From NCBI RefSeq assembly GCF_024223415.1, contig NZ_CP100500.1: a stretch of DNA of 64,000 bases, one strand, 5' to 3'. Each line of letters opens with the position of its first letter. The stretch's first letter is position 1. The position numbers and the translations under genes were made by a program. The notes under the pieces were generated by a model that had not been told where the DNA came from, searched no databases, and worked only from the letters and a program-made list of their open reading frames with translations. This document shows, piece by piece, positions 31,411 through 51,036 of the stretch. The stretch is from Escherichia coli (lineage in GTDB: Bacteria > Pseudomonadota > Gammaproteobacteria > Enterobacterales > Enterobacteriaceae).

Positions 31411-31898
31411 CCTGTAAAAAGCCCCTGACAGTGCAGGGGCGGGATTGATTTGAATTAACGAGGTAAGGCTGGTGGAATGTATTTGCCGATGCGGTCTTCT
31501 ATCGTTGGCAGAATACACATGCTGTCGTTAAAGCGATCGTGCAGTTTGTAGACCAGTTTCGAATCAGCCATTTCAAGCGCTGGCATTAACTGAGTCTGCC
31601 AGATTTCGTTGATGCGCCGGAAGTTATGACAGATCGCACGAAGATTATTAATGAACATTTCCTTCTCTGCGTCAGTGACTTCTGTTTGTGTTTTCTGAAT
31701 ACGCTTTGTGCTGCCGTTCCGGTAAAAGCGTTCCTGCGCAGCGACAGCCTCATCCACAGTCGGATAACAGCCAACGTATACGTTTTTCTCGCCGTCCCAT
31801 GCATAAGCCCGGTACGGATTGTATTTGCTCCGGTGATGGTAAATCATCTTCGGCAGACATTCCCTGTGCGGCGCCAGTATCGTGGAGGACTGCGGAAC
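31411..31898. repeat. ~490-bp direct repeat, copy A (3' part of BRO-N gene + its terminator)
   Basis: Near-identical to 35504..35990 at DNA and protein level (C-terminal 147 aa plus downstream hairpin gcccctgacagtgcaggggc). Confidence 0.85.
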
Positions 31899-32231
31899 GG
31901 CGGTATCTTTCTCGATAAGGTCAAGCACCCAGCGACGAAATTCTTTGGCTACCGGAGTCGTTGCGAATATTGCTACCAGGTGGGCACCGCGCAGGGAGAA
32001 AACTCGCACATCTTTTTCACGTAAGCTATTGTTTATTCCGTTGAACCTCATTTTGAGGTTGATTGACATACCCGGGGTAAACTCATCTGCGTTGCGGTTG
32101 TATATCTGGGTGATTTTATCGCCGCGCGAATACCCCAGCGCAGTAGCCAGCGTTGCGGCGGTGAACCACTGCCTGCCGTTGTGTTCGGTAGTTTCGAGAA
32201 CGTGAGATTTGAATACGAGTTGGGTACTCAT
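31455..32231 (-). CDS. BRO-N domain antirepressor-like protein with C-terminal AP2-like DNA-binding module
   Basis: ORF 31455..32393; probable start at Met55 (MSTQLVFKSHVLETTEHNGRQWFTAATLATALGY..., BRO-N-like). C-terminal ~147 aa (YRAYAWDGEKNVYVGCYPTVDEAVAAQERF, AP2-like) is nearly identical to the C-terminus of ORF 35547..36311. Confidence 0.65.
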   Translation of the reverse strand: MSTQLVFKSHVLETTEHNGRQWFTAATLATALGYSRGDKITQIYNRNADEFTPGMSINLKMRFNGINNSLREKDVRVFSLRGAHLVAIFATTPVAKEFRRWVLDLIEKDTAVPQSSTILAPHRECLPKMIYHHRSKYNPYRAYAWDGEKNVYVGCYPTVDEAVAAQERFYRNGSTKRIQKTQTEVTDAEKEMFINNLRAICHNFRRINEIWQTQLMPALEMADSKLVYKLHDRFNDSMCILPTIEDRIGKYIPPALPR

Positions 32232-32498
32232 AGTTTTATGTCCTTTGCAATATTTTGAATTCACCCCTTTTGAGAGGGCGGTCAGGCGCTCAAAACCGTG
32301 CAAAGTCGGCGGGCGTATTTCCCTTACGGGTATTGTATTAGCCTCACGCCCGACCATTGAATTCTCAATATCGTGGACATAAAAAATCCGCATGTCTGTC
32401 GGGTGCGGTTTCCGCTTTGCAAGGTGTTTTGAGCACCATGACGCGGAATATAGCCCCGTTAACGCGACATTGTCAAACTGAAGAATTTTACGGATAGC

Positions 32499-32613: not shown

Positions 32614-33357
32614 TTAAGATGAAGCGTTCGCTATCTGAGCGTCGCTGAATGTGAAACCCGCCTGTTTAAGACGCTGGATTAAGCGGGGTACTGTCTCCCG
32701 AACATGGTCATTAAAGTTGAGATAAAGAATACCGGCGGCATCAGAAGGCTGCTCAAGGTGTTGTTTCTGCAGGATGACCACGTTACTGCGACCGAGTGAA
32801 GATAACAGCATCCCCATTTCTAAAACTACGTTTTGGCGTGCCCTGGGCTGGGCTGCTTCCTGGCCGTCTCTTTTGGCGTATCCCACATCATCGGGAGTGA
32901 GGAGAACAATGCCGAAACGCGTCGCTGTCCGTCCCTGACCAATTTCACGTTCAAGCTCTTCAATTATCGTAAGCCCGGTCCCACCGGTATTCTGCAAAAT
33001 AAAATGGTCAGGTAATCCAAGCTTATGAAGAATAAGTTCAAGCTGCTCTTTTGCTACATGATCGTGACCGTGAACGATGAAAATCTTTTTTGCTGGTTCT
33101 TGCATCATGACTGGAGCGTTACCCAGGTGTTCATTAATAATGGCTTCAACCTCAGGTTTTGCCGCTTGTGAACCCTGAATCAAAATCGTTCCGGTGTGGT
33201 AAAGCGTTATGATGGCACCATTACTTAAACGATAACAATCATGACCGGTTTTGTTTTCTTCTCCGGTAACATCAAATCCGGATTCGACTAAAAATTGACG
33301 AAAAGTATCGACAGCGTATGGGTATTTGAGTGCCATTTCATTGAGTTCCTGCATCAT
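32614..33357 (-). CDS. TIR-like domain protein (resembles the 'predicted nucleotide-binding protein containing TIR-like domain' family) with ~80-aa N-terminal domain of unknown function; candidate defence/abortive-infection effector
   Basis: 247 aa. C-terminal region has KIFIVHGHDH...GIVLLTPDD...QPRARQNVVLEMGMLLSSLGRSNVVIL, which I recognise as the signature of bacterial TIR-like (CAP12/Pycsar-effector-type) domains. From memory, not HMM-verified. Confidence 0.5.
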   Translation of the reverse strand: MMQELNEMALKYPYAVDTFRQFLVESGFDVTGEENKTGHDCYRLSNGAIITLYHTGTILIQGSQAAKPEVEAIINEHLGNAPVMMQEPAKKIFIVHGHDHVAKEQLELILHKLGLPDHFILQNTGGTGLTIIEELEREIGQGRTATRFGIVLLTPDDVGYAKRDGQEAAQPRARQNVVLEMGMLLSSLGRSNVVILQKQHLEQPSDAAGILYLNFNDHVRETVPRLIQRLKQAGFTFSDAQIANASS

Positions 33358-33410: not shown

Positions 33411-35477
33411 CTAATCTTTTCTGTAACGGTACGCCTCGAATCCTCCGGCGTTTAGTGGAATGCTCGTGGCCCAGTCAGGAACGGTTGCCAGTAACTGGCT
33501 GAGATGTTCTGCTGAGTAATCGGGTGAGTCAGGGGCCTCACTTATAATTTCATCGTGTACCGTCAGCACAATGCTGTAACCGGCATCTTCGATAAGCGGC
33601 ATGTTTCCGGCCAGAACGTCGCGGGCGGCCGCCTGGGTGACGTTCTCCACCAGCTTTCCGCCGTAGGTTTTGAGTCGTTGCCATTTACGCGAATAAGAGT
33701 TAACACCCATATAGGTGATATCCCCTTTTTCGATAACCGGAGACGGGTAGCATACAGCGCGTCCGGATGGTAGCTGTATGCGCAGCCACGCGCCATCGCG
33801 GCGGATTTTAAGATAACCGCAATACAATGTTTTTTGCGGTGTGGCGATTGCAGTGCGGACGGTGCGCTCCAGTTCGTACCAGAAATCGCAGGTCGCCGGG
33901 TGCGCCCTGCGCCACAGGCGCTTGAGCGAGTCACATGCGATGAATACACGCTCGGACAGGCCAAAGGTCGACTTACGTTTAACCGATTCGTCGTACCAGC
34001 TTTTCGCCTCGCGGATAACATCGCGGGGAATGTTTGGCAGTGCGGCGTTCGCCAGCTCGTCGAGATCGAGACCGTAAACCAGAGCAAAAGTGATGAAAGC
34101 CGATACACCACCTCCATAACCCAGACCGAGTTCCATGACTTTACCGATCTGACGCATGTGTTTATCAACATCATCTGGTGCAATATCGAAAGCTTTTGCA
34201 TACGCCAGTTTATATAAGTCCGGACCCGTTCCGGCGTCGTACTCTCTGAATGCATTCAGTTTCCATTCTTCTCCCGCCAGCCATGCCAGCATACGGCCTT
34301 CAATGTTCGACAAGTCACTTACCACCAGTTTTTTGCCTGTTGGCGCGATAATGCAGCCACGTAACGCTGAACTGGTTAGTTCCATGATATTGTCAAACAG
34401 CAGGTCTGCACATCCGGCTTTCAGTGCTTCGATGCCTTCGTCTATTTGTTCCTGTTTTAGTGAAGGGCGGGGAAGGTTCTGGGGCTGGAATAGCCGTCCG
34501 GCCCAACGACCGGTACGTGACGCCCCGCAGAACTGTAGCGTACCGCGTAAGCGCCCGTCGTGGCTTACGCCTTTCATCAGTGCCTTGTATTTACTGGTGC
34601 TGGTAGTACTGGCCTGCAGGCGGATAGCCAGCAGTTCTTTCACGGCAGATGGTAAATTGGGGTCGGCAATACGACGTTCCAGAGTACTGCGTTGCATGTC
34701 TGGTAGCTCCACACCGTAGGATTCAACAATGTGCTTAATCAACGCGTCCCGTTGTGTGGCTGCCTGCACTTCGCCATCAGTCATTTCCTGTGTACGCTTT
34801 GCCAGGCGCTTTTGCTCCTGGTCTACCGCTTCGATCGCAGCGCGCGCGAGTTGAATGTCCATGCAGACGCCCCGGTCGTTGATCTGCTGATCACGATGCC
34901 AGAGTGCCAGTTCTGTCCCCTGATAATTCCACTTCGGCAGACGTTTATAGACTTCGCGCATTGCCTCGATATCCAGTCCGGCGTAAGCAACAAAGCGCCG
35001 CCATTCTTCCGGGTGGGTTTTGCTGGTGGCCCGGCGCAGTTTGCTGTTTTTCGGGCGTGGTTTGCACAGTAGCTGAATTAGTGACTTGCCTTCTTTATCC
35101 TTCGCTTTGTCCTGCGGGACGCCCAGCACTTCGCAAAGAGCGCCCAGCGCCCCCGGAAGACCATGCGCCAGCGCCTGCACCATTGTGTCGCGCCAGCGTT
35201 CAGTAGCTGGTGACATGTCTGGCATACAATGACGAAGTATCGTGCGGTCAAAGTGCGAATTGTGCGCCCAAACCTCCACATCCGGGTTTTTGAGTGCGAG
35301 ACGTAATTCCGGGGGGATTTTTTCGCCTGCGGTCAGGTCCCACACCTGCACGGGATCGTTATTGATGGCCCAGGCAAAAAGCATAATTTCAGCGCCTTCT
35401 GCATATGCGTGGGTACCGTTTTTTATCGGTATTTCAGAGAAGGTTTCAAGATCGAGCCAGAGAATGTTTGCAGGCAA
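33411..35477 (-). CDS. family A DNA polymerase with 3'-5' exonuclease domain (phage-type)
   Basis: 688 aa; Exo I motif (LDLETFS), exo motif YAGLDI, polymerase motif B-like ([16 protein letters not shown]), motif C (TVHDEII). Confidence 0.8.
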
Positions 35478-35503: not shown

Positions 35504-35990
35504 CTACAAAAAGCCCCTGACAGTGCAGGGGCGGGATTGATTTGAATTAACGAGGTAAGGCTGGTGGAATGTATCTGCCGATGCGGTCTTCTATGGTCGG
35601 CAGAATGCACATGCTGTCGCTGAAGCGGTCATGCAACTGGTAAACCAGTTTAGAATCCATTTTTTCGAGAGCAGGCATTAACTGCGCCCGCCAGATTTCG
35701 TTGATGCGCCGGAAGTTATGACAGACGGCGCGGAGATTGTTGATGAACATTTCCTTCTCTGCGTCAGTGACTTCTGTCTGTGTTTTCTGAATACGCTTTG
35801 TGCTGCCATTCCGATAGAAGCGTTCCTGAGCAGCAACAGCCTCATCCACGGTTGGATAGCACCCTACGTAAACGCTCTTCTCTCCGTTCCATGCGTAGGC
35901 TCTGTACGGGTTGTATTTGCTCCGGTGATGGTAAACCATCTTCGGCAGACACTCCCTGTGTGGCGCCAGTATCGTGGAGGATTGCTGGTG
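35504..35990. repeat. ~490-bp direct repeat, copy B (3' part of AntA-type gene + its terminator)
   Basis: See copy A. Confidence 0.85.
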
Positions 35991-36311
35991 CAGTTTGCGT
36001 TCGCACTCGATGAAGTATCGGCGGATCTGGCGGCCTTTTTCGTTGCGCTCCACCATCGCCAGTTCTTTGGCCGTGTCGAGGGTGAGGTGGTAGTCCTTAC
36101 AAAGAACATTTTTACGCTTTCCAGTTTTGGAAAACGTTACGATATAATCCTGATTTTCAACGAATTCATAGTCTGCAATTCGTGATGTAATCCACGCTGC
36201 AAACACTTTCCCTACCCCAAGGAATGCGTGCAGATCGCGAGCATTGCAGAGCAGGGTGGTTTCGTTGGCGATAGCGCCGTTGAAAACGGGGATGAGTTGA
36301 GTTGCCATCAC
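35547..36311 (-). CDS. AntA-type antirepressor-like protein with C-terminal AP2-like module (paralogue of 31455..32231)
   Basis: 254 aa; distinct N-terminal domain (NARDLHAFLGVGKVFAAWITSRI...) fused to the same ~147-aa C-terminal module as the BRO-N protein. Confidence 0.65.
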   Translation of the reverse strand: MMATQLIPVFNGAIANETTLLCNARDLHAFLGVGKVFAAWITSRIADYEFVENQDYIVTFSKTGKRKNVLCKDYHLTLDTAKELAMVERNEKGRQIRRYFIECERKLHQQSSTILAPHRECLPKMVYHHRSKYNPYRAYAWNGEKSVYVGCYPTVDEAVAAQERFYRNGSTKRIQKTQTEVTDAEKEMFINNLRAVCHNFRRINEIWRAQLMPALEKMDSKLVYQLHDRFSDSMCILPTIEDRIGRYIPPALPR

Positions 36312-43660: not shown

Positions 43661-44386
43661 ATGCTGGTGAATGATAAGGGGGTGCAGATGCTGACAGCAA
43701 TCAACAACGAAAAAATTGTCATCGCAAGGGACGCGCAGAAACCGGGAATTTTCGCCTGCCCGGAATGTGGTGAAGTTGTCACCCTGCGGAAAGGTTCGGT
43801 GAAAGTTCACCATTTCGCCCATCGCAGCACCACATCCTGCGGTTACGGGAAAGGCGAATCTGAGTTGCACATGGATTTGAAAATGCAGGTCTATGACGCG
43901 TTGAACGCGCATCGTGAGGTGGAATATGTTGCGATGGAGGTCGCAGTCGGTGATGTTCGTCCCGATGTGCTGGCGATTATTCGGGGTCAGAAGGTTGCTT
44001 TTGAGATTCAGGTTAGTTCGCTGAGTATTGAAGACCTCTATCGCCGCACGGTTGCGTACGCAGCTCAGGACATTGCGATGATCTGGATCCTGCACTGGCC
44101 TGAAGGTACTGCACTGGACCGGCTTTATCACCCTGCATCATGGGAGCGATGGTTACATACTTGCGGAATGGCAACTCTGTACTTCTGGGCGGGCGATGGC
44201 TGGGTCAGGCCAGTGCGTCTGGGAAACCGACAACATGGATTACAAAGAGCACCTCGTGCCCATCTGGTTGATGATTTCGAACCAAAGCGAACAGGCGGGT
44301 GGATTAAAGGTGATTTTCTGATACCTGCTCGCTTTATCTGGAATCGTGTGCGACGGCAAAAACGTAGAGGTCAGAGCTATGCGTAA
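43661..44386 (+). CDS. CoiA-like / PD-(D/E)xK-type nuclease family protein
   Basis: 241 aa; CPECG zinc ribbon, HHFAH, and DVRPDVLAI...AFEIQVSS resembling competence protein CoiA-like nucleases. Confidence 0.5.
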   Translation: MLVNDKGVQMLTAINNEKIVIARDAQKPGIFACPECGEVVTLRKGSVKVHHFAHRSTTSCGYGKGESELHMDLKMQVYDALNAHREVEYVAMEVAVGDVRPDVLAIIRGQKVAFEIQVSSLSIEDLYRRTVAYAAQDIAMIWILHWPEGTALDRLYHPASWERWLHTCGMATLYFWAGDGWVRPVRLGNRQHGLQRAPRAHLVDDFEPKRTGGWIKGDFLIPARFIWNRVRRQKRRGQSYA

Positions 44387-44813
44387 TATTCAACAGGTTT
44401 TAGAGCGCTGGGGTGGCTGGGCTGCCAATAGCAACACCACAGTGAGCTGGGCTCCAATAGCGGCGGGATTTAAAGGGCTGGTAGTCAGCAGCCTGCCTGG
44501 CAGGCTGAGTTGCTGCGACGACGATGGCCTGATTATCGATGCTTGCGTCTGTCGGCTGCAGCAGGTCCGTAAGCCTGAGGAACTGGACGTCATTATGCTG
44601 TACTACGTCTACGGGTTAAGCAAACGTGAGATAGGACGGCGGCGTCGATGTTCTGAAGGATTTATCCGCCAGCAGTTGCAGGTAGCTGAGGGATTCATTG
44701 AGGGGTGTCTCTGCATGCTGGGTGTGAGCCTTCAGATGGATCCTGAGGTCGAAATTCAAAGGGATGAAAAAAGTATTAGTGCGCTACGCAAAAACTGCGC
44801 TACGCTGGTATGA
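44379..44813 (+). CDS. late-gene antiterminator Q (phage 21/82-type)
   Basis: ORF 44346..44813; probable start MRNIQQVLERWGGWAANSN...; position directly upstream of the lysis cassette. Confidence 0.7.
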   Translation: MRNIQQVLERWGGWAANSNTTVSWAPIAAGFKGLVVSSLPGRLSCCDDDGLIIDACVCRLQQVRKPEELDVIMLYYVYGLSKREIGRRRRCSEGFIRQQLQVAEGFIEGCLCMLGVSLQMDPEVEIQRDEKSISALRKNCATLV

Positions 44814-45407: not shown

Positions 45408-46343
45408 ATGGAACATAATAATGAAAAATCCAGAGAGCACTCTGGAAACAGCAAACATTATTCCATTGCTCATTCATTCGGCGGCTTTCGTGATGTAGTC
45501 GGACAGGGTGCTGAGAGAGAACAGGAGAGTAATACAATGACTCAAAACCATGAACTGGTTGTTAAAGGAACCCGAAATTTTGAGAATAAAATTGCGGTGA
45601 TTTTAACCCTGCGTGACAAAAAGCGTTTTGCCTGTGAGATATTTGACTTACACATCAACCTTGAACGACAGGAAGGCGCCACTCTGGAGTTTTATGAGTC
45701 AGAGGCAATAAAACGGGCAAAGACATTGTTCCGGGATGTTGCTGCAGGGTTATGTGAAGGGGACGAGCTGTCGCCGGAAAAGCGCCCCATAATTTTACAG
45801 GCGCACAATGTGTGGATAACCTACAAAGGAAAGCTACCGGGAAGAATTACTGGTTCTCTGAAGATGCCGCCGTCAACACTGCGGTCAGAAAAAGAGGCGT
45901 CTTGTCTGCAGTCTGAGTACTCCATTACGGTTAAAAGTGCCGGAGAGGAAGGAAATAAACGTTATTTTATTGCGTCTGCACCTGATAAAGATCAGGAATG
46001 GGAGTGTAACCGGCCATCCTTTGTTGTATACGGAGATGGCGGGAAAATAACCATCTCAGAAAATGGGAAATTAACACCGCCATCGCACCAGCATAGTGAG
46101 GCGCTCATTGAATTTGCCATTGATTACCTGAAGAACAATAAAAAGCAGGGGCTGATGAAGCGCATTGGTCGTTGCATGGGATATCTGCAGGTAGCAGCTG
46201 AGATTGAAATGATGGCCAGTGGTGCTGACAATGATGCAGTTGTGCTGGAGGCTCTTCTGCGTGATTTTGATAATACGCCCTTTAAGAAAGCACCTGTTGA
46301 CTGGATGCAGCCGGGGATGACTTATCTGAAAGGGCGTATATAA
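45408..46343 (+). CDS. hypothetical protein inserted between holin and endolysin (moron A; alternative start 45537)
   Basis: 311-aa ORF with RBS, starting 4 nt after holin stop; no recognisable motif; N-terminal 43 aa low complexity, so Met44 (MTQNHELVV..., RBS GGAGAG) may be the real start. Confidence 0.5.
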   Translation: MEHNNEKSREHSGNSKHYSIAHSFGGFRDVVGQGAEREQESNTMTQNHELVVKGTRNFENKIAVILTLRDKKRFACEIFDLHINLERQEGATLEFYESEAIKRAKTLFRDVAAGLCEGDELSPEKRPIILQAHNVWITYKGKLPGRITGSLKMPPSTLRSEKEASCLQSEYSITVKSAGEEGNKRYFIASAPDKDQEWECNRPSFVVYGDGGKITISENGKLTPPSHQHSEALIEFAIDYLKNNKKQGLMKRIGRCMGYLQVAAEIEMMASGADNDAVVLEALLRDFDNTPFKKAPVDWMQPGMTYLKGRI

Positions 46344-46795: not shown

Positions 46796-47329
46796 ATGAA
46801 CACCAAAATCAAATATGGCCTGTCGGCTGCCGTTCTGGCACTGATTGCCGTCGGTGCGCCTGCGCCTGATATTCTCGACCAGTTTCTGGATGAAAAAGAA
46901 GGTAACCACACAACGGCATACCGCGATGGTTCCGGTATATGGACCATCTGTCGTGGTGCCACAATGGTGGATGGTAAGCCCGTCATACCGGGAATGAAGC
47001 TGTCGAAGGAAAAATGCGTTCAGGTTAATGCCATTGAGCGTGATAGGGCGCTGGCATGGGTGGAGCGCAATATTAAAGTACCTCTGACCGAAGCACAGAA
47101 AGCGGGTATTGCGTCATTCTGTCCCTATAACATTGGCCCCGGTAAGTGTTTCCCGTCGACGTTTTATAAGCGGCTTAATGCCGGTGATCGTAAAGGTGCC
47201 TGTGAGTCGATTCGCTGGTGGATTAAGGACGGTGGGCGTGATTGCCGCACACGTTCAAATAACTGCTACGGACAGGTTATTCGTCGTGACCAGGAAGCAG
47301 CACTTGTGTGCTGGGATATCGACAGATGA
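46796..47329 (+). CDS. SAR endolysin (phage 21 R-type lysozyme)
   Basis: 177 aa; N-terminal signal-anchor-release helix (GLSAAVLALIAVGAPA); lysozyme core (TICRGAT...). Confidence 0.85.
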   Translation: MNTKIKYGLSAAVLALIAVGAPAPDILDQFLDEKEGNHTTAYRDGSGIWTICRGATMVDGKPVIPGMKLSKEKCVQVNAIERDRALAWVERNIKVPLTEAQKAGIASFCPYNIGPGKCFPSTFYKRLNAGDRKGACESIRWWIKDGGRDCRTRSNNCYGQVIRRDQEAALVCWDIDR

Positions 47330-47421
47330 GCAGAATATTTTGCTGAAAAATGACGTTGGCCAACGCGGACGGATAACACGATATTCGACATAAATGAATT
47401 TAAATAGTGAATAAAAGCAGA

Positions 47422-47458
47422 AACCCCGATTGTTGGTCGCAATCGGGGTTTTGTGTTT
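47422..47458 (+). terminator. rho-independent terminator inside the R-Rz insert
   Basis: 11-bp stem aaccccgattg/caatcggggtt followed by TTTTGTGTTTCT. Confidence 0.7.
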
Positions 47459-47644
47459 CTGGCAGTAAGTTATGGGAGGCTGCCTTGATTAATTTTAGCG
47501 GAGGAGACTGGATTGTGGAAGCTCTGAAATTGCTCGAAAGAAGTCCGGTTCTGAGAAGAATGTTTTATATAGCTCTTATAGTTATCGGAGCATTCGCCGT
47601 TGCGAAATCACTTCCGGGAATAGCTGAAATCATAAAGGCGCTGA

Positions 47645-47818
47645 ATGCATAAAGAATACCTGGCTGAGGCTGACAAACAGGTCTCTGAATTGAAAGCTCC
47701 GGTAACCGATGACATCAGCGGAGCGGTGGCTTTTGCCATTAAGTGGGTGGCAGTCGGCGTTGCTATATCACCGGTACTGTATGGGCTGGCAAAGCTGGTT
47801 ATTGCGTTGAAATCATAA
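47645..47818 (+). CDS. small hydrophobic peptide (57 aa) carried on the R-Rz insert
   Basis: ATG 47645 to TAA 47818, MHKEYLAEADKQVSELKAPVTDDISGAVAFAIKWVAVGVAISPVLYGLAKLVIALKS, one TM helix; not in the ORF track. A second possible peptide MFYIALIVIGAFAVAKSLPGIAEIIKALNA (47560..47652) directly precedes it. Confidence 0.35.
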   Translation: MHKEYLAEADKQVSELKAPVTDDISGAVAFAIKWVAVGVAISPVLYGLAKLVIALKS

Positions 47819-47881
47819 CTGTTACGGCCAGGTTATTCGTCGTGACCAGGAAAGTGCATTAGCCTGTTGGGGGATAGATCA

Positions 47882-48349
47882 GTGAGCAGAGTCGCCGCGA
47901 TTATTTATGCTCTGGTTATCTGCATCATCGTCTGCCTGTCGTGGGCGGTCAATCATTACCGTGATAACGCCATCGCCTACAAAGAACAGCGTGATAAAAA
48001 AGTCAGTGAGCTGAAGCAGGCGACCGCCACCATTACTGACATGCAGCAACGCCAGCGTGCTGCTGATGTACTCGATGCTAAATACACGAAGGAGTTGGCT
48101 GATGCGAAAGCTGAAAATGATGCTCTTCGGCGCAAGCTTGATAATGGTGGTCGGGTGCTCGTCAAAGGAAAATGCTCTGTGCCATCCTCAGCCGAAACCT
48201 CCAGCGCCTCCGGCATGGGCAATGATGCCACCGTCGAACTCTCTCCAGTTGCTGGACGAAACGTTCTCGGTATCCGGGACGGAATCATCAGAGACCAGAC
48301 AGCACTGAGAACGCTTCAGGAATATATCAGGACGCAATGCCTTCGATGA
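47882..48349 (+). CDS. i-spanin Rz
   Basis: ORF 47867..48349; lambda Rz-like sequence ([33 protein letters not shown]...) beginning at a GTG aligned with lambda Rz Met1. Confidence 0.85.
48102..48308 (+). CDS. o-spanin Rz1 (lipoprotein, nested in +1 frame of Rz)
   Basis: ORF 48057..48308; start [21 protein letters not shown] with lipobox VVGC; proline-rich mature part ([16 protein letters not shown]). Confidence 0.8.
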
Positions 48350-48521
48350 TAGCGATAATTTTACTGATCATCCTTCACATCTGGCTCTGTAGACAGGGTG
48401 GTGATCACTTCTGGAGTGAATCCAGATTAAACATCTCATTGCTGATGCTTGAAGTTGAGCATCTGGCGCGCGGTAAGGGGCTGCGTTGAAATAAGAGCCA
48501 GTCATTAAAAATACCTGGATT

Positions 48522-48548
48522 TAGCCTCGCATTCGCGGGGCTTTTTAT
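48522..48548 (+). terminator. hairpin + T-run after Rz/Rz1
   Basis: agcctcgc-att-cgcggggct followed by TTTTTATT. Confidence 0.55.
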
Positions 48549-48550
48549 TG

Positions 48551-48776
48551 CCATTACAAAAGCCACTCCCTACAGAGTGGCTTTGATAATGGCTTATACC
48601 CTACACGGGATAACTTAACTGATATCCCTTTTAACGGATAAAGGTATTCAAGCCTGACACATCATGCGCTGTATCGTCGCCGTATTCCCGTATTAACAGA
48701 GACCGTAGCCCGACGGGGAACTCCTTCTGCGAGAGTGTGCGGGAATAATCAAAAACGATGCACACCGGGTTTTTAC
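48551..48776. repeat. ~225-bp direct repeat, left copy (DR-L)
   Basis: Near-identical to 50338..50562 (a few mismatches); weaker similarity continues ~70 bp further in both copies. Confidence 0.85.
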
Positions 48777-48899
48777 CGCGCTAATGATTCGCGGGTTTGT
48801 CCCTCATGCTCGCCAGTCCTGTGCGAGGGTGGAAGAAACAGGGCATGTATTCAGGAGCGTGCGACCGTGGTCGCACGGTATCTTTGTCAGGAGGTTTTG

Positions 48900-49760
48900 A
48901 TGAAAGAGTTGCAAAAAATTAATTCAATAATGGAAAGGTTAAGTGCTCTTGAGCGTAAGCTGGACGATTGTGGAAAGCTGTGTGTTGAAAAGCAAAATGA
49001 GCTTTACCGGGAATTTTTTACAATCGTAAGTGAGCTGATGCCAATTGTTAATAACTGCCTGATGACATCCAGATTTTTTAATGTCGATGCTACTACATCC
49101 AGAAAATTTTCTGTGAAAATTCAAGAAAGAGTTTCTGGTAGTGTGACAAGAGAGATGGCTGAACAGTTGGTGGCAATGAGCAATAAAACAAAAAGAAAAA
49201 AGGCATTGCTTGTAACAGCAAATCAGCTTTCAGGGCGCGTTGACTTTCAGGTCAGACAGGGTGGGCGTGTACTGGTAAATGATGCGTTCGTTGGACGTAG
49301 CTTTAGTCCTTACTCGATAAAATATGATGTTGATGCAGATGATCAGGATATCAGCATTTCCTGGAAATCTGAGACAGCAGGGATTGTATTAACAGCAGAG
49401 TTGTTGAGTGATGATAAAAATGATGTCCAGCATCATTTGGACGAAAAGAATCATATTTCTGAAATTTGTATGAAGCCACGCAGCGGAATGACTTTATTGT
49501 CACGCACTCTTGCTGCTGGCTTTTCTGCACCGGAAAAACGTGTGCTTCTGGTAGTGCCTGAAGATGCAGATATTCGACCACTGAATGGCTGTGATGTTAT
49601 TAGTGCAAAAACATTGCATACCCGCGTCATTCCTGTACCGGATGTGGTCATTATTGATGATGTTGAGAAATGCAAGTCTGTTTCCTCAACTGCCACAATC
49701 AAGCGAATTTTACGTTGTAGCACGTCGGCTGTTGTATTCCGGAAGCAGTTACATAACTAA
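48900..49760 (+). CDS. hypothetical protein (286 aa), first gene of AT-rich cassette
   Basis: ORF 48735..49760; probable start Met56 MKELQKINSIMERLSALERKLDD... with AGGAGG RBS; coiled-coil-like N-terminus; AT-rich codon usage unlike surrounding phage genes. Confidence 0.55.
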   Translation: MKELQKINSIMERLSALERKLDDCGKLCVEKQNELYREFFTIVSELMPIVNNCLMTSRFFNVDATTSRKFSVKIQERVSGSVTREMAEQLVAMSNKTKRKKALLVTANQLSGRVDFQVRQGGRVLVNDAFVGRSFSPYSIKYDVDADDQDISISWKSETAGIVLTAELLSDDKNDVQHHLDEKNHISEICMKPRSGMTLLSRTLAAGFSAPEKRVLLVVPEDADIRPLNGCDVISAKTLHTRVIPVPDVVIIDDVEKCKSVSSTATIKRILRCSTSAVVFRKQLHN

Positions 49761-49886
49761 CCAGTTTTGTTTTGCAGAACATCCTCAACTAAAAGCTTAT
49801 AGAAAGAGAGCCTGAGATATTTTTTCTGTCTCTCGTAGTTGTTTGTTTTTTTTTTCGAACAGGCTTACAACTTACAGGATATAAAC

Positions 49887-50336
49887 ATGCAAGAAGAAGC
49901 AAATAAAATTCTTGTTGATTTATTGAAGAAGGCCAGCGATGGAATTGATTCCGCCATTGCATTCAGTCAGGCTCAGATTCCGGATGTTGTTCATCAGTTG
50001 CTGGTATGGAATATGGTTGATAGCCTGATTAAAACATTAATAGCCATTTCAACAATCCCTCTGGTTTTCTGGTTTATGAAGAAGCAGTGCCAAAGAGTTG
50101 AGACAGGTAAAATCGGTGATGAAGGATATTCATGGGAGAAGGGAAATCCCAAATACAGGCCGACAATGGTTTGGGATAGCAAAGGTGATATTAATCTTCT
50201 TATCGTGCCATTGGTTGGAGTTTTGACTATGTGGGGGATTTTTATTATTTGTGCAGTAACCAATATGACATGGTTAAAAATCTGGCTGGCACCTAAGTTA
50301 TATCTAATCGAATACGCAGCATCACTAATTAAATAG
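49887..50336 (+). CDS. hypothetical membrane protein (149 aa, two predicted TM helices), second gene of AT-rich cassette
   Basis: ORF 49839..50336; start MQEEANKILVDLLKK...; hydrophobic segments LIKTLIAISTIPLVFWFM and LLIVPLVGVLTMWGIFIICAV. Confidence 0.55.
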   Translation: MQEEANKILVDLLKKASDGIDSAIAFSQAQIPDVVHQLLVWNMVDSLIKTLIAISTIPLVFWFMKKQCQRVETGKIGDEGYSWEKGNPKYRPTMVWDSKGDINLLIVPLVGVLTMWGIFIICAVTNMTWLKIWLAPKLYLIEYAASLIK

Positions 50337-50337
50337 T

Positions 50338-50562
50338 CCATTACAAAAGCCATTCGCTACAGAGTGGCTTTGATAATGGTTTATACCCTGTACGGGATAA
50401 CTTAACTGATATCCCTTTTAACGGATAAAGGTATTCAAGCCTGACACATCATGCGCTGTATCGTCGCCGTATTCCCGTATTAACAGAGACCGTAGCCCGA
50501 CGGGGAACTCCTTCTGCGCGAGTGTGCGGGAATAATCAAAAACGATGCACACCGGGTTTTAC
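50338..50562. repeat. ~225-bp direct repeat, right copy (DR-R)
   Basis: See DR-L. Confidence 0.85.
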
Positions 50563-50631
50563 TGTGCTGACAGACGCAGGGTTACTCTCATAGTCGCTTT
50601 TCCGGTGCGATGGTGGAAGAAACCGGGATGT

Positions 50632-50826
50632 TTATTCATCATCTATTTGGATTGATGTATATGCTCTCTTTTCTGACGTTAGTCTCCGACGGCAGGCTTC
50701 AATGACCCAGGCTGAGAAATTCCCGGACCCTTTTTGCTCAAGAGCGATGTTAATTTGTTCAATCATTTGGTTAGGAAAGCGGATGTTGCGGGTTGTTGTT
50801 CTGCGGGTTTTGTTCTTCGTTGACAT
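50632..50826 (-). CDS. YlcI/YnfO-family small prophage protein
   Basis: 64 aa; MSTKNKTRRTTTRNIRFPNQMIEQINIALEQKGSGNFSAWVIEACRRRLTSEKRAY... near-identical to remembered DLP12 YlcI. Confidence 0.8.
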   Translation of the reverse strand: MSTKNKTRRTTTRNIRFPNQMIEQINIALEQKGSGNFSAWVIEACRRRLTSEKRAYTSIQIDDE

Positions 50827-51023: not shown

Positions 51024-51036
51024 GGGGCGTCGACCT
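51024..51036. other. cosN-like cohesive-end site
   Basis: ACGGGGCGTCGACCTCGCGGTTTTTCGCTATTTATGA is near-identical to the lambda left end GGGCGGCGACCTCGCGGGTTTTCGCTATTTATGA, ~220 bp upstream of the Nu1-like gene. Confidence 0.7.

What the first reader, a model, noticed from the sequence alone, without database searches (positions are those of the whole stretch)
48551..50562. AT-rich two-gene cassette (soluble protein + small membrane protein) flanked by ~225-bp direct repeats between Rz and cos
Two near-identical ~225-bp direct repeats bracket a ~1.55-kb segment markedly more AT-rich than the neighbouring phage genes. It encodes a 286-aa soluble protein with coiled-coil-like N-terminus and a 149-aa protein with two TM helices, co-oriented with good RBSs. 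This is the classic moron position (where lambda has bor/lom). A cytoplasmic component plus a small membrane protein is the architecture of several abortive-infection/exclusion systems (RexAB-like in layout only; no similarity seen). The repeats suggest acquisition by recombination and could mediate excision.
Basis: partly seen in the sequence, partly recalled or inferred. Interest (0 to 1): 0.75.

Follow-up and report, generated by a model that had tools for sequence, protein, structure and literature searches.

The report
Two late-operon cargo genes between duplicated spacers
Two uncharacterised accessory genes sit between the lysis genes and the packaging site of a lambda-like E. coli prophage, flanked by two copies of an ordinary conserved spacer that phage-to-phage recombination brought together; nothing shows they form a defence system.

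Summary
Two 223-nt direct repeats (48551-48773 and 50338-50560; 6 mismatches, 97%) bracket the most AT-rich stretch of the window (39.5% GC). That stretch encodes a 286-aa soluble protein (A) and a 149-aa protein with two hydrophobic segments (B), between Rz and cos.

The repeat (R) is a conserved non-coding spacer of the lysis-cos interval. It occurs in about 3,560 of 5,426 complete E. coli genomes, normally as one copy, with recurrent mosaic breakpoints. A is natively found downstream of R and B upstream of R, so joining the two modules gave R-A-B-R. An empty-site genome has one R.

A and B are not an obligate pair. A occurs alone (L148). B occurs alone in P22-like, Sf6 and O55:H7 early-left operons, after Rz1 in Pantoea, and in lytic phages such as phi92. 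A is an orphan (PHROG 2571). B belongs to a large family of unknown function (PHROG 3054). Neither matches Pfam, NCBIfam, PADLOC or solved structures. No own promoter was found, and three or four terminator-like hairpins lie upstream, so expression is probably late and Q-dependent.

Verdict: an ordinary mosaic moron locus with unknown cargo. A real defence-family hit (PDC-S35, TIR-like) lies elsewhere in the window.

The parts
47885..48349 (+). Rz spanin gene (Rz1 embedded in the +1 frame), the last lysis gene upstream of the locus
   Evidence: PHROG 13 Rz-like spanin, E 2.9e-71; the embedded lipoprotein-like ORF appears in the ORF list
48523..48550 (+). Intrinsic-terminator-like hairpin plus T-run after Rz and the 50-aa ORF; the left repeat starts at the next base
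   Evidence: Terminator scan; identical in the empty-site genome XB2
48551..48773 (.). Left copy of spacer module R (223 nt)
   Evidence: 100% identical to the single R of IMG/VR locus L049 but only 91.7% identical to the partial R upstream of A in L003/L004
48551..48592 (+). Hairpin 1 of R (left copy): CCATTA..AAAGCCACTC-loop-GAGTGGCTTT..TAATGG
   Evidence: 98% of cells paired vs 34-51% in slid controls; 3 pairs changed on both sides between two alleles; one-sided changes are C->U opposite G, tolerated only in + strand RNA
48774..48899 (+). 'Left-tail' allele of the spacer's 3' extension, including a GC-rich hairpin at 48858-48877 and the RBS of gene A; the native upstream context of A
   Evidence: 100% identical to the sequence upstream of A in L003/L004. 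The same tail, without A, runs into cos in lambda-type phages. Hairpin found by the terminator scan
48900..49760 (+). Gene A: 286-aa soluble orphan protein (helical hairpin, beta domain, small alpha/beta domain)
   Evidence: PHROG 2571, unknown function, E 6.7e-164; 15 clusters, nearly all E. coli; one full-length 50% cluster among 1.84 billion representatives; AF2 mean pLDDT 60.6
49761..49886 (+). A-B intergenic region (34% GC, T-rich); its last 40 nt travel with B in the B-only derivative
   Evidence: L025 keeps intergenic positions 87-126 directly in front of B
49887..50336 (+). Gene B: 149-aa protein with two hydrophobic segments and conserved N- and C-terminal helices
   Evidence: PHROG 3054, unknown function, E 6.2e-61; 490 clusters across Enterobacterales; 178 phage records including Sf6 gp34 and phi92 gp220; hydropathy; alignment A3
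50338..50560 (.). Right copy of spacer module R, the resident copy of the Rz-cos interval; it starts one base after B's stop codon
   Evidence: B is followed immediately by R in every late-region context examined (L001, L003, L004, L025, L150, L151)
50561..50631 (.). 'Right-tail' allele of the spacer, linked to ylcI
   Evidence: 98.6% identical to the tail in empty-site XB2 and in TUM1886
50632..50826 (-). YlcI/YnfO-family small gene on the opposite strand
   Evidence: NCBIfam NF041551, 37.7 bits against a cutoff of 30; PHROG 949
51025..51036 (+). cosN-like 12-mer GGGCGTCGACCT, one mismatch from the lambda cohesive end
   Evidence: Read; the lambda cos sequence is from my own knowledge; homologous cos regions follow R in loci L051/L061/L085/L114
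51253..51759 (+). Terminase small subunit, where the structural genes begin
   Evidence: PHROG 57 and 1790, E about 5e-57

Best explanation
This is a mosaic joint in the lysis-cos interval of a lambdoid prophage that carries two independent accessory ('moron') genes.

The ~223-nt repeat R, with its ~70-nt tail, is the conserved non-coding spacer that normally lies once between the late-region cargo genes and cos. Gene A's native place is just downstream of R plus the left tail. Gene B, which in most phages is an early-left-operon gene, was placed just upstream of an R. Recombination between phages carrying these arrangements produced R-A-B-R. In this window a further homologous crossover at the R/left-tail boundary put a full-length R in front.

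The shared R copies act as portable homology arms. They let the cassette move between lambdoid backbones, and they can delete it, leaving one R.

Both genes lie on the late strand, behind three or four terminator-like hairpins, with no promoter found. They are therefore most likely transcribed only by Q-antiterminated polymerase during lytic growth (inferred).

B is most likely an inner-membrane protein acting at the cell envelope during the lytic cycle. My best specific guess, at about 30%, is that it blocks secondary infection in the manner of T4 Imm. A is a soluble orphan protein of unknown role that does not need B.

Shown: the anatomy, the distribution, and the separability of A and B. 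Inferred: the expression timing. Guessed: the biochemical function.
For: Repeats and composition.

Empty site: XB2 has the Rz terminator, one R, the right tail and ylcI.

R is a general module. It matches in 3,559 of 5,426 genomes and 499 phage records. There is one match in each of the 80 listed IMG/VR loci. Breakpoints recur at positions 1/87/115 and 222/292/325. R plus the left tail abuts cos in lambda-type phages. R positions 115-222 are present in reference lambda between bor and lambdap78.

Fine mosaicism. R-left is 100% identical to L049 but 91.7% to L003/L004, while the left tail is 100% identical to L003/L004 and 96.8% to L049. B is 100% identical to TUM1886 but 89% to L003.

Separability. 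A alone: R-left tail-A-cos-Nu1 in L148. Decayed remnants of A's 5' end: L049 and L060. B alone: Salmonella P22-likes next to sieB, Sf6 gp34 after ral, O55:H7 after ral, Pantoea overlapping the end of Rz1, E. coli DG342-2, and lytic phages of E. coli, Vibrio and Pseudomonas. The A+B cassette is in 27 of 5,426 genomes; matches to B alone occur in roughly 100 more.

Expression. No promoter-like site lies upstream of A, and terminator-like hairpins are at 48523, 48858 and 48864. Hairpin 1 of R is conserved and its substitutions fit + strand RNA.
Against: No expression data exist, and a weak or non-sigma-70 promoter cannot be excluded by a consensus scan. In all 27 E. coli genomes with an intact, closely related A, B is adjacent, so a functional interaction remains possible. 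The order of the recombination events is not resolved. The envelope or exclusion role for B rests only on predicted membrane location, on the transcription units it occupies, and on its presence in lytic phages. B's topology (N-terminus out, loop in) is inferred from charge bias alone. The structure models are of low confidence (pLDDT about 60).
Confidence: 0.7

Rival explanations
1. A and B form a two-component abortive-infection or superinfection-exclusion system, a cytoplasmic sensor plus a membrane effector in a RexAB-like layout, that protects the lysogen.
For: The genes are co-oriented and adjacent, and the pairing is kept in 27 complete E. coli genomes across several phage backbones and phage-plasmids. 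B is a membrane protein. In P22-like phages B sits beside sieB and ral in a region rich in exclusion and anti-defence genes.
Against: A occurs without B and B without A in hundreds of clusters, including lytic phages that have no lysogen to protect. There are no hits to PADLOC, Pfam or NCBIfam. No promoter was found and terminators lie just upstream, so lysogenic expression is unlikely. A has 15 clusters against 490 for B.
Confidence: 0.1
2. B is a lysis-timing or lysis-regulating membrane protein (antiholin-like or spanin-associated), and the cassette is an extension of the lysis module.
For: Here, in DG342-2 and in Pantoea prophages, B lies directly after Rz/Rz1. In Pantoea its start overlaps the end of the Rz1-type gene. 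It is small and has two hydrophobic segments.
Against: In most contexts B is an early gene far from the lysis cassette: after N/ral in Sf6, O55:H7 and P22-likes, and among early or DNA-metabolism genes in phi92 and Vibrio phages. It matches no Pfam holin family, and its C-terminus is amphipathic rather than highly charged.
Confidence: 0.15
3. The repeat R is itself the functional unit, either an sRNA or structured RNA of the late transcript or a small protein gene, and its duplication doubles that function.
For: R is strongly conserved as non-coding DNA across diverged phages. The + strand of 48510-48900 folds much better than shuffles (z = -5.2), whereas the minus strand of the right copy does not (z = -0.8). 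Hairpin 1 keeps its pairing through changes on both sides. Some annotators call a minus-strand ORF of 44-83 aa here.
Against: No Rfam family matches at E <= 0.1. Known prophage sRNAs map to the pR' moron site, not here. Variable sites in the core show no three-base periodicity (80/89/96). The minus-strand ORF is truncated in this window and the + strand ORF is frame-shifted between the two tail alleles. The compensatory changes amount to a single allelic switch. The core is too invariant to test for covariation. The + strand z-score includes three obvious terminator-like hairpins.
Confidence: 0.15
4. The cassette is a mobile element whose direct repeats are recombination sites (att-like or target-site duplications) used for excision and insertion.
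For: Direct repeats flank a compositionally foreign insert, and an exact 'empty site' with one repeat exists.
Against: No integrase, transposase or other recombinase lies in or next to the cassette. At 223 nt the repeats are far longer than target duplications. R occurs singly in thousands of genomes without the cassette. The left boundary differs between hosts: full R, R from position 116, R from position 72, or no R.
Confidence: 0.03

Closest known systems
Lambdoid 'morons' of the late operon (lambda bor and lom, HK97 examples; concept of Juhala et al. 2000, cited in PMC4104026)
   Same: Extra genes present or absent between conserved neighbours, with lower GC than the flanks, placed between Rz and cos where lambda has bor, and followed by a hairpin.
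   Different: bor lies on the opposite strand and has its own expression in the lysogen (from my own knowledge). A and B are on the late strand with no promoter found. The proteins are unrelated to Bor or Lom.
Boundary or linker sequences of lambdoid and P22-like phages (annotated as 'bsq' in the Sf6 record NC_005344)
   Same: Short conserved non-coding stretches at module junctions that recur in otherwise different phages and mark mosaic breakpoints. One such feature (bsq4) lies right after the B homolog, gene 34, in Sf6.
   Different: R is longer (about 223-295 nt), is itself composite, and here is present twice in direct orientation. I did not test whether R is homologous to the Sf6 boundary sequences.
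Sf6 gp34 / CUS-3 / phi92 gp220 family (PHROG 3054)
   Same: B is a full-length member (E 6.2e-61). It shares the invariant N-terminal helix motif and the C-terminal WLKIWxAPKLxLxEY motif.
   Different: Most members sit in early operons; here B is in the late operon. No member has a known function.
RexAB of lambda
   Same: Only the layout: a soluble protein gene followed by a small membrane protein gene in a prophage.
   Different: No sequence similarity was detected. The genes are not obligately paired. They lie in the late operon rather than the immunity region, and there is no evidence of lysogenic expression.
Inner-membrane superinfection-exclusion proteins (P22 SieA, T4 Imm)
   Same: Small phage-encoded membrane proteins. 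Imm is made early by a lytic phage, much as B homologs are placed in phi92 and Vibrio phages.
   Different: No homology: hhalign probability 0.2% against SieA, and no Pfam Imm or SieB match. The functional analogy is a hypothesis only.

Membership tests
Moron (late-operon accessory gene of lambdoid phages) | Present or absent between conserved flanking genes in related phages | tested here: met
   Empty site in XB2. The cassette is in 27 of 5,426 genomes while the flanks are in thousands.
Moron (late-operon accessory gene of lambdoid phages) | Nucleotide composition distinct from neighbouring phage genes | tested here: met
   39.5% GC against about 50%; the lowest of all 1,460-bp stretches in the window.
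Moron (late-operon accessory gene of lambdoid phages) | Own promoter and terminator allowing expression from the prophage | tested here: inconclusive
   No sigma-70-like site upstream of A. A hairpin follows B (hairpin 1 of R). Consensus scan only.
PHROG 3054 (Sf6 gp34-like membrane proteins) | Full-length match to the family profile | tested here: met
   E 6.2e-61, residues 1-149 on profile positions 1-137 of 137; conserved termini in alignment A3.
PHROG 2571 | Full-length match to the family profile | tested here: met
   E 6.7e-164, residues 1-286 on profile positions 1-291 of 291.
Known anti-phage defence systems (PADLOC-DB v2, including Rex-type, Abi and candidate PDC systems) | Significant match of either protein to a defence-system model | tested here: not met
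   0 families at E <= 1 for A, B, YlcI and the minus-strand ORF in R.
RexAB-like two-component exclusion | The two genes always occur together | tested here: not met
   A alone in L148. B alone in many phages.
RexAB-like two-component exclusion | Expressed in the lysogen and excludes superinfecting phage | not testable with these tools
   Needs expression data and plating assays. The context (late strand, terminators upstream) argues against it.
SieA / Imm / SieB exclusion proteins | Sequence or profile homology | tested here: not met
   hhalign against P22 SieA: probability 0.2%. Pfam scan of B gave no Imm_superinfect or SieB hit.
Holins | Match to a holin family, or position as the only membrane protein of the lysis cassette | tested here: not met
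   No Pfam holin hit. Related loci already have separate holins.
Mobile element with terminal repeats (IS, MITE, integrative cassette) | An encoded or adjacent recombinase, and repeats specific to the element | tested here: not met
   No recombinase ORF. R occurs alone in 3,559 genomes.
Curated RNA families (Rfam 15) | Match reaching significance or the gathering score | tested here: not met
   The best matches have E 0.86-0.93 and score far below the gathering thresholds.

The most novel reading that the evidence does not exclude
B's family (PHROG 3054; Sf6 gp34, phi92 gp220) is a widespread, still uncharacterised inner-membrane effector made during lytic growth by both temperate and virulent phages. 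It might be a new class of superinfection-exclusion or envelope-remodelling protein. A would be a lineage-specific cytoplasmic partner that modulates it in E. coli phages.
Probability: 0.12. Interest if true: 0.6.

Novelty: new member of a known kind. Interest (0 to 1): 0.3.

Why it matters
For this locus the result is mostly deflationary. It shows how repeat-flanked, AT-rich two-gene cassettes in lambdoid prophages can arise from ordinary mosaic recombination around a shared spacer, so this layout should not by itself be read as a defence system or a mobile element.

Two things remain of modest value. First, B belongs to a large phage membrane-protein family with no Pfam entry and no known function. 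It is conserved from P22-like prophages to lytic phi92-like, Vibrio and Pseudomonas phages, which makes it a reasonable target for a functional screen. Second, the spacer R, with its conserved + strand hairpin, is a useful landmark for cargo sites next to cos in E. coli prophages.

Tried and rejected
- Family searches for A and B (Pfam, NCBIfam, PADLOC) gave no hits. Profiles against PDB sequences also gave none.
- The AF2 models are of low confidence (pLDDT 60.6 and 62.0).
- Foldseek against AFDB50 found only uncharacterised small beta-domain relatives of A residues ~99-170. BFVD gave nothing for B.
- A possible link between A's beta domain and the YdfR-like domain of the 311-aa ORF upstream was rejected: BLASTP found no alignment.
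- The C-terminal 'KPRSGMT ... VVIIDD' stretch of A looks superficially like Walker A and B motifs, but it lacks the lysine and has no fold-search support, so I do not claim an NTPase.
- R as a known sRNA was rejected: no Rfam match, and the literature places prophage anti-sRNAs and Pas sRNAs near pR'.
- R as coding sequence was rejected: no codon periodicity and the ORFs are not conserved between alleles.
- The 'Rha family regulator' annotation over R in some records is only a 20-nt overlap with the 3' end of an upstream cargo gene.
- The in-frame 55-codon extension upstream of A (from the GTG at 48735) was rejected as the true start. All homologs start at the ATG at 48900, which has a strong RBS.
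- The window holds no second B- or A-like gene.
- One literature search (YlcI/lambdoid) gave nothing relevant.
- I did not use the third word-index protein search or the metagenome and genome scans, because they would mostly have returned more unnamed homologs.
Full report
**1. Observation.**
The repeat finder reports a two-copy direct repeat of 223 nt at 48551-48773 and 50338-50560, with start-to-start spacing 1787. The copies differ at 6 positions, which is 97.3% identity. Weaker similarity (about 80%) continues for some 70 nt after each copy.

Between the copies lie two co-oriented ORFs. A is 48900-49760 (286 aa, AGGAGG RBS). B is 49887-50336 (149 aa). GC content is 40.7% for A, 34.1% for the intergenic region and 38.7% for B, against 49.5% for the lysis genes and 51.8% for the terminase genes. 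The 1,460-bp insert is the most AT-rich stretch of that size in the whole 64-kb window. B has two hydrophobic segments and A has none.

The surrounding genes are as follows:
- A Q-like antiterminator at 44346-44813.
- An endolysin at 46796-47329.
- Rz at 47885-48349, followed by a 50-aa ORF.
- A terminator at 48523-48550.
- On the far side, a minus-strand YlcI/YnfO gene at 50632-50826.
- A lambda-like cosN at 51025-51036.
- The terminase small subunit from 51253.

**2. What the repeat is.**
R is not specific to this cassette. The right copy plus its tail matches in 3,559 of 5,426 complete E. coli genomes and in 499 phage records. These include lambda-type, HK97, HK620 and Stx phages. Reference lambda carries R positions 115-222 at 46868-46974, between bor and lambdap78.

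An invariant 20-mer from the R core pulled out 120 IMG/VR loci, and each of the 80 listed has one match. Across the 120 loci R shows recurrent breakpoints, at positions 1, 87 and 115 on the left and at 222, about 292 and about 325 on the right. R is therefore itself a mosaic of sub-modules. Its 3' extension comes in two alleles:
- The 'left tail' (48774-48877 here) runs straight into cosQ/cosN in lambda-type phages.
- The 'right tail' (50561-50631) is linked to ylcI.

E. coli XB2 shows the empty arrangement: Rz terminator, one R, right tail, ylcI.

**3. Does R encode anything?**
- Rfam gives nothing better than E 0.86.
- The published prophage anti-sRNAs and Pas sRNAs map to the moron site downstream of pR', not to this interval.
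- Variable sites in 37 unique core sequences show no three-base periodicity (80/89/96 by phase).
- The ORFs that gene callers sometimes place here are truncated or frame-shifted between alleles.

One element does look selected: the hairpin at the 5' end of R (48551-48592 and 50338-50379). In 32 distinct copies, 98% of cells pair, against 34-51% when partners are slid. Two structural alleles differ by changes on both sides at three pairs. All frequent one-sided changes are C to U opposite G, which keeps pairing only in + strand RNA. The two alleles represent essentially one evolutionary switch, so this is suggestive rather than proof. I read the hairpin as a terminator-like or stabilising element for whatever cargo lies upstream on the late strand. 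The rest of the core is too invariant to test.

**4. How R-A-B-R arose.**
A and B each have their own relation to R.
- A is always preceded by the left tail. This holds in phage-plasmid pCAVP367-48 and chromosome SUISSE (R from position 116, left tail, A, B, R). It also holds in L150 and L151.
- In L148 a diverged A (80% aa, 85% nt) stands alone: R(72-223), left tail, A, 40 nt, cos, Nu1.
- L049 and L060 keep only a decayed 5' remnant of A behind the same tail.
- B is followed, one base after its stop codon, by R position 1 in every late-region context.
- TUM1886 has A-B-R with no left R at all.

The two R copies are therefore the constant regions of different parental arrangements brought together by recombination. 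They are not scars of an insertion mechanism.

The window itself is a further recombinant. R-left is 100% identical to L049's R but 91.7% to the partial R of L003/L004. The adjoining left tail is 100% identical to L003/L004 and 96.8% to L049. B and everything to its right match TUM1886 at 98.6-100%, while B is only about 89% identical to L003's. No complete E. coli genome in the collection covers the whole query. The five best places all start at the repeat and cover 86-87%, and in TUM1886, the one I examined, the left R is absent. The full-length duplication is therefore at least uncommon.

**5. Are A and B a system?**
The evidence says they are separable.

A is nearly an orphan. It has 15 clusters in the 5.8-billion-protein index, almost all from E. 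coli. Among 1.84 billion representatives there is one full-length 50%-identity cluster plus fragments. Its only family is PHROG 2571, of unknown function. Its middle beta domain recurs as a stand-alone or differently fused module in other late-region prophage genes (P0144, P0145), which is typical module shuffling.

B has 490 clusters across Escherichia, Salmonella, Citrobacter, Cronobacter, Pantoea and others. It also has homologs in 178 phage records. Without A, B sits in these places:
- In the early-left operon next to sieB in P22-like Salmonella prophages.
- After ral in Sf6 (gene 34) and in an O55:H7 prophage.
- Overlapping the end of the Rz1-type gene in Pantoea prophages.
- Among early or DNA-metabolism genes in lytic phi92, Vibrio and Pseudomonas phages.

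In E. coli, 27 of 5,426 genomes carry A+B, and roughly 100 more match only B. DG342-2 looks like an A-B cassette from which A was deleted.

**6. Function.**
Neither protein matches Pfam, NCBIfam, PADLOC or any PDB sequence. The structure models are weak and the fold searches were uninformative. B is not related to P22 SieA.

What can be said comes from context.
- A and B lie on the late strand, downstream of Rz. Three or four terminator-like hairpins precede A's RBS: the Rz terminator, hairpin 1 of R, a weaker GGGATA...TATCCC-TTTT hairpin seen in the fold, and the GC-rich hairpin at 48858-48877.
- There is no sigma-70-like promoter in between.
- The most economical reading is expression only from Q-modified polymerase, that is, during lytic growth.
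- Every other home of B is also a lytic-cycle transcription unit: pL operons, or the early regions of virulent phages.

B's conserved parts are its N-terminal helix and its C-terminal amphipathic helix (WLKIWLAPKLYLIEY). The N-terminus is acidic and the loop after the first hydrophobic segment is K/R-rich across the family. That suggests termini out and loop in, but this rests on charge bias alone.

I therefore propose that B is an inner-membrane protein acting at the envelope during lytic development. Blocking secondary infection is the leading specific guess (about 30%). Lysis timing is the main alternative (about 15%). A's role is unknown. These functional statements are hypotheses.

**7. 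Comparison and verdict.**
In kind this is a late-operon moron locus, at the site where lambda carries bor, embedded in the conserved linker sequences that underlie lambdoid mosaicism. It resembles RexAB only in layout. It fails the tests for a defence system, a holin, a mobile element and a known RNA. The cargo proteins are members of existing but uncharacterised PHROG families.

I rate it a new member of a known kind, with interest 0.3. The residual interest lies in B's large, unnamed, cross-lifestyle family.

**8. Elsewhere in the window.**
A genuine defence-family hit lies far from the finding. The 247-aa ORF at 32614-33357 (minus strand) matches PADLOC candidate PDC-S35 at E 8.9e-107 and Pfam CAP12/Pycsar TIR at E 1e-30.

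Noticed in passing
window 32614-33357 (-): This 247-aa ORF is a full-length match to the PADLOC candidate defence protein PDC-S35 (E 8.9e-107). It has a CAP12/Pycsar-type TIR domain (Pfam PF10137, E 1e-30). It is a better candidate for a prophage-encoded defence gene than the cassette under review.
   Followed up: partly
window 31416-31715 and 35508-35807: A 300-nt direct repeat at 90% identity. It is the shared 3' end of two paralogous antirepressor-like genes (31455-32393 and 35547-36311, both minus strand). Together they bracket the PDC-S35 gene and a 688-aa DNA-polymerase-like ORF (33411-35477). This is another repeat-bracketed cargo block.
   Followed up: partly
window 47259-47334 and 47815-47890: A 76-nt direct repeat at 78% identity. 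The 3' end of the endolysin gene is duplicated just before Rz. Two small ORFs lie in between: 47407-47652 (81 aa, no family) and 47645-47818 (57 aa, PHROG 1115). It follows the same 'duplicated junction around inserted genes' logic as the main finding.
   Followed up: partly
window 45408-46343 (+): A 311-aa ORF between pR' and the endolysin that combines PHROG modules 406/2091/2735 (YdfR-like N-terminal part) with 1085/36381/26186. The same C-terminal modules are fused to the beta domain of protein A in P0145. Late-region accessory proteins therefore appear to shuffle domains.
   Followed up: partly
window 48858-48877 (+): A perfect GC-rich hairpin (CGTGCGACC-GT-GGTCGCACG) followed by a T-rich tract, 22 nt before gene A's ATG. 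It belongs to the 'left-tail' spacer allele, which in lambda-type phages lies about 80 nt before cosN. It may be a terminator guarding the cos/terminase boundary.
   Followed up: partly
window 48735-48899 (+): The reading frame of gene A is open for 55 codons upstream, from a GTG at 48735. The stretch is cysteine-rich and overlaps R and the left tail. Homologs all start at the ATG at 48900, so this is probably not translated.
   Followed up: partly
window 43661-44386 (+): A 241-aa ORF just upstream of the Q-like gene. It has a weak N-terminal hit to PADLOC DruB (E 9e-6, about 45 residues only), a zinc-ribbon-like CPEC motif, and no NCBIfam match.
   Followed up: no
window 48337-48489 (+): A 50-aa hydrophobic ORF overlapping the end of Rz (PHROG 11822, unknown function). 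It is conserved and annotated as hypothetical in XB2 and other prophages, and could be an unrecognised lysis-cassette component.
   Followed up: no
L003 (pCAVP367-48), L151 (CP055678), and several 46-62-kb records: The A-B cassette is common on ~46-50-kb plasmid records (pCAVP367-48 is linear) that carry lambdoid lysis and head genes. These look like phage-plasmids and may be its main reservoir.
   Followed up: partly
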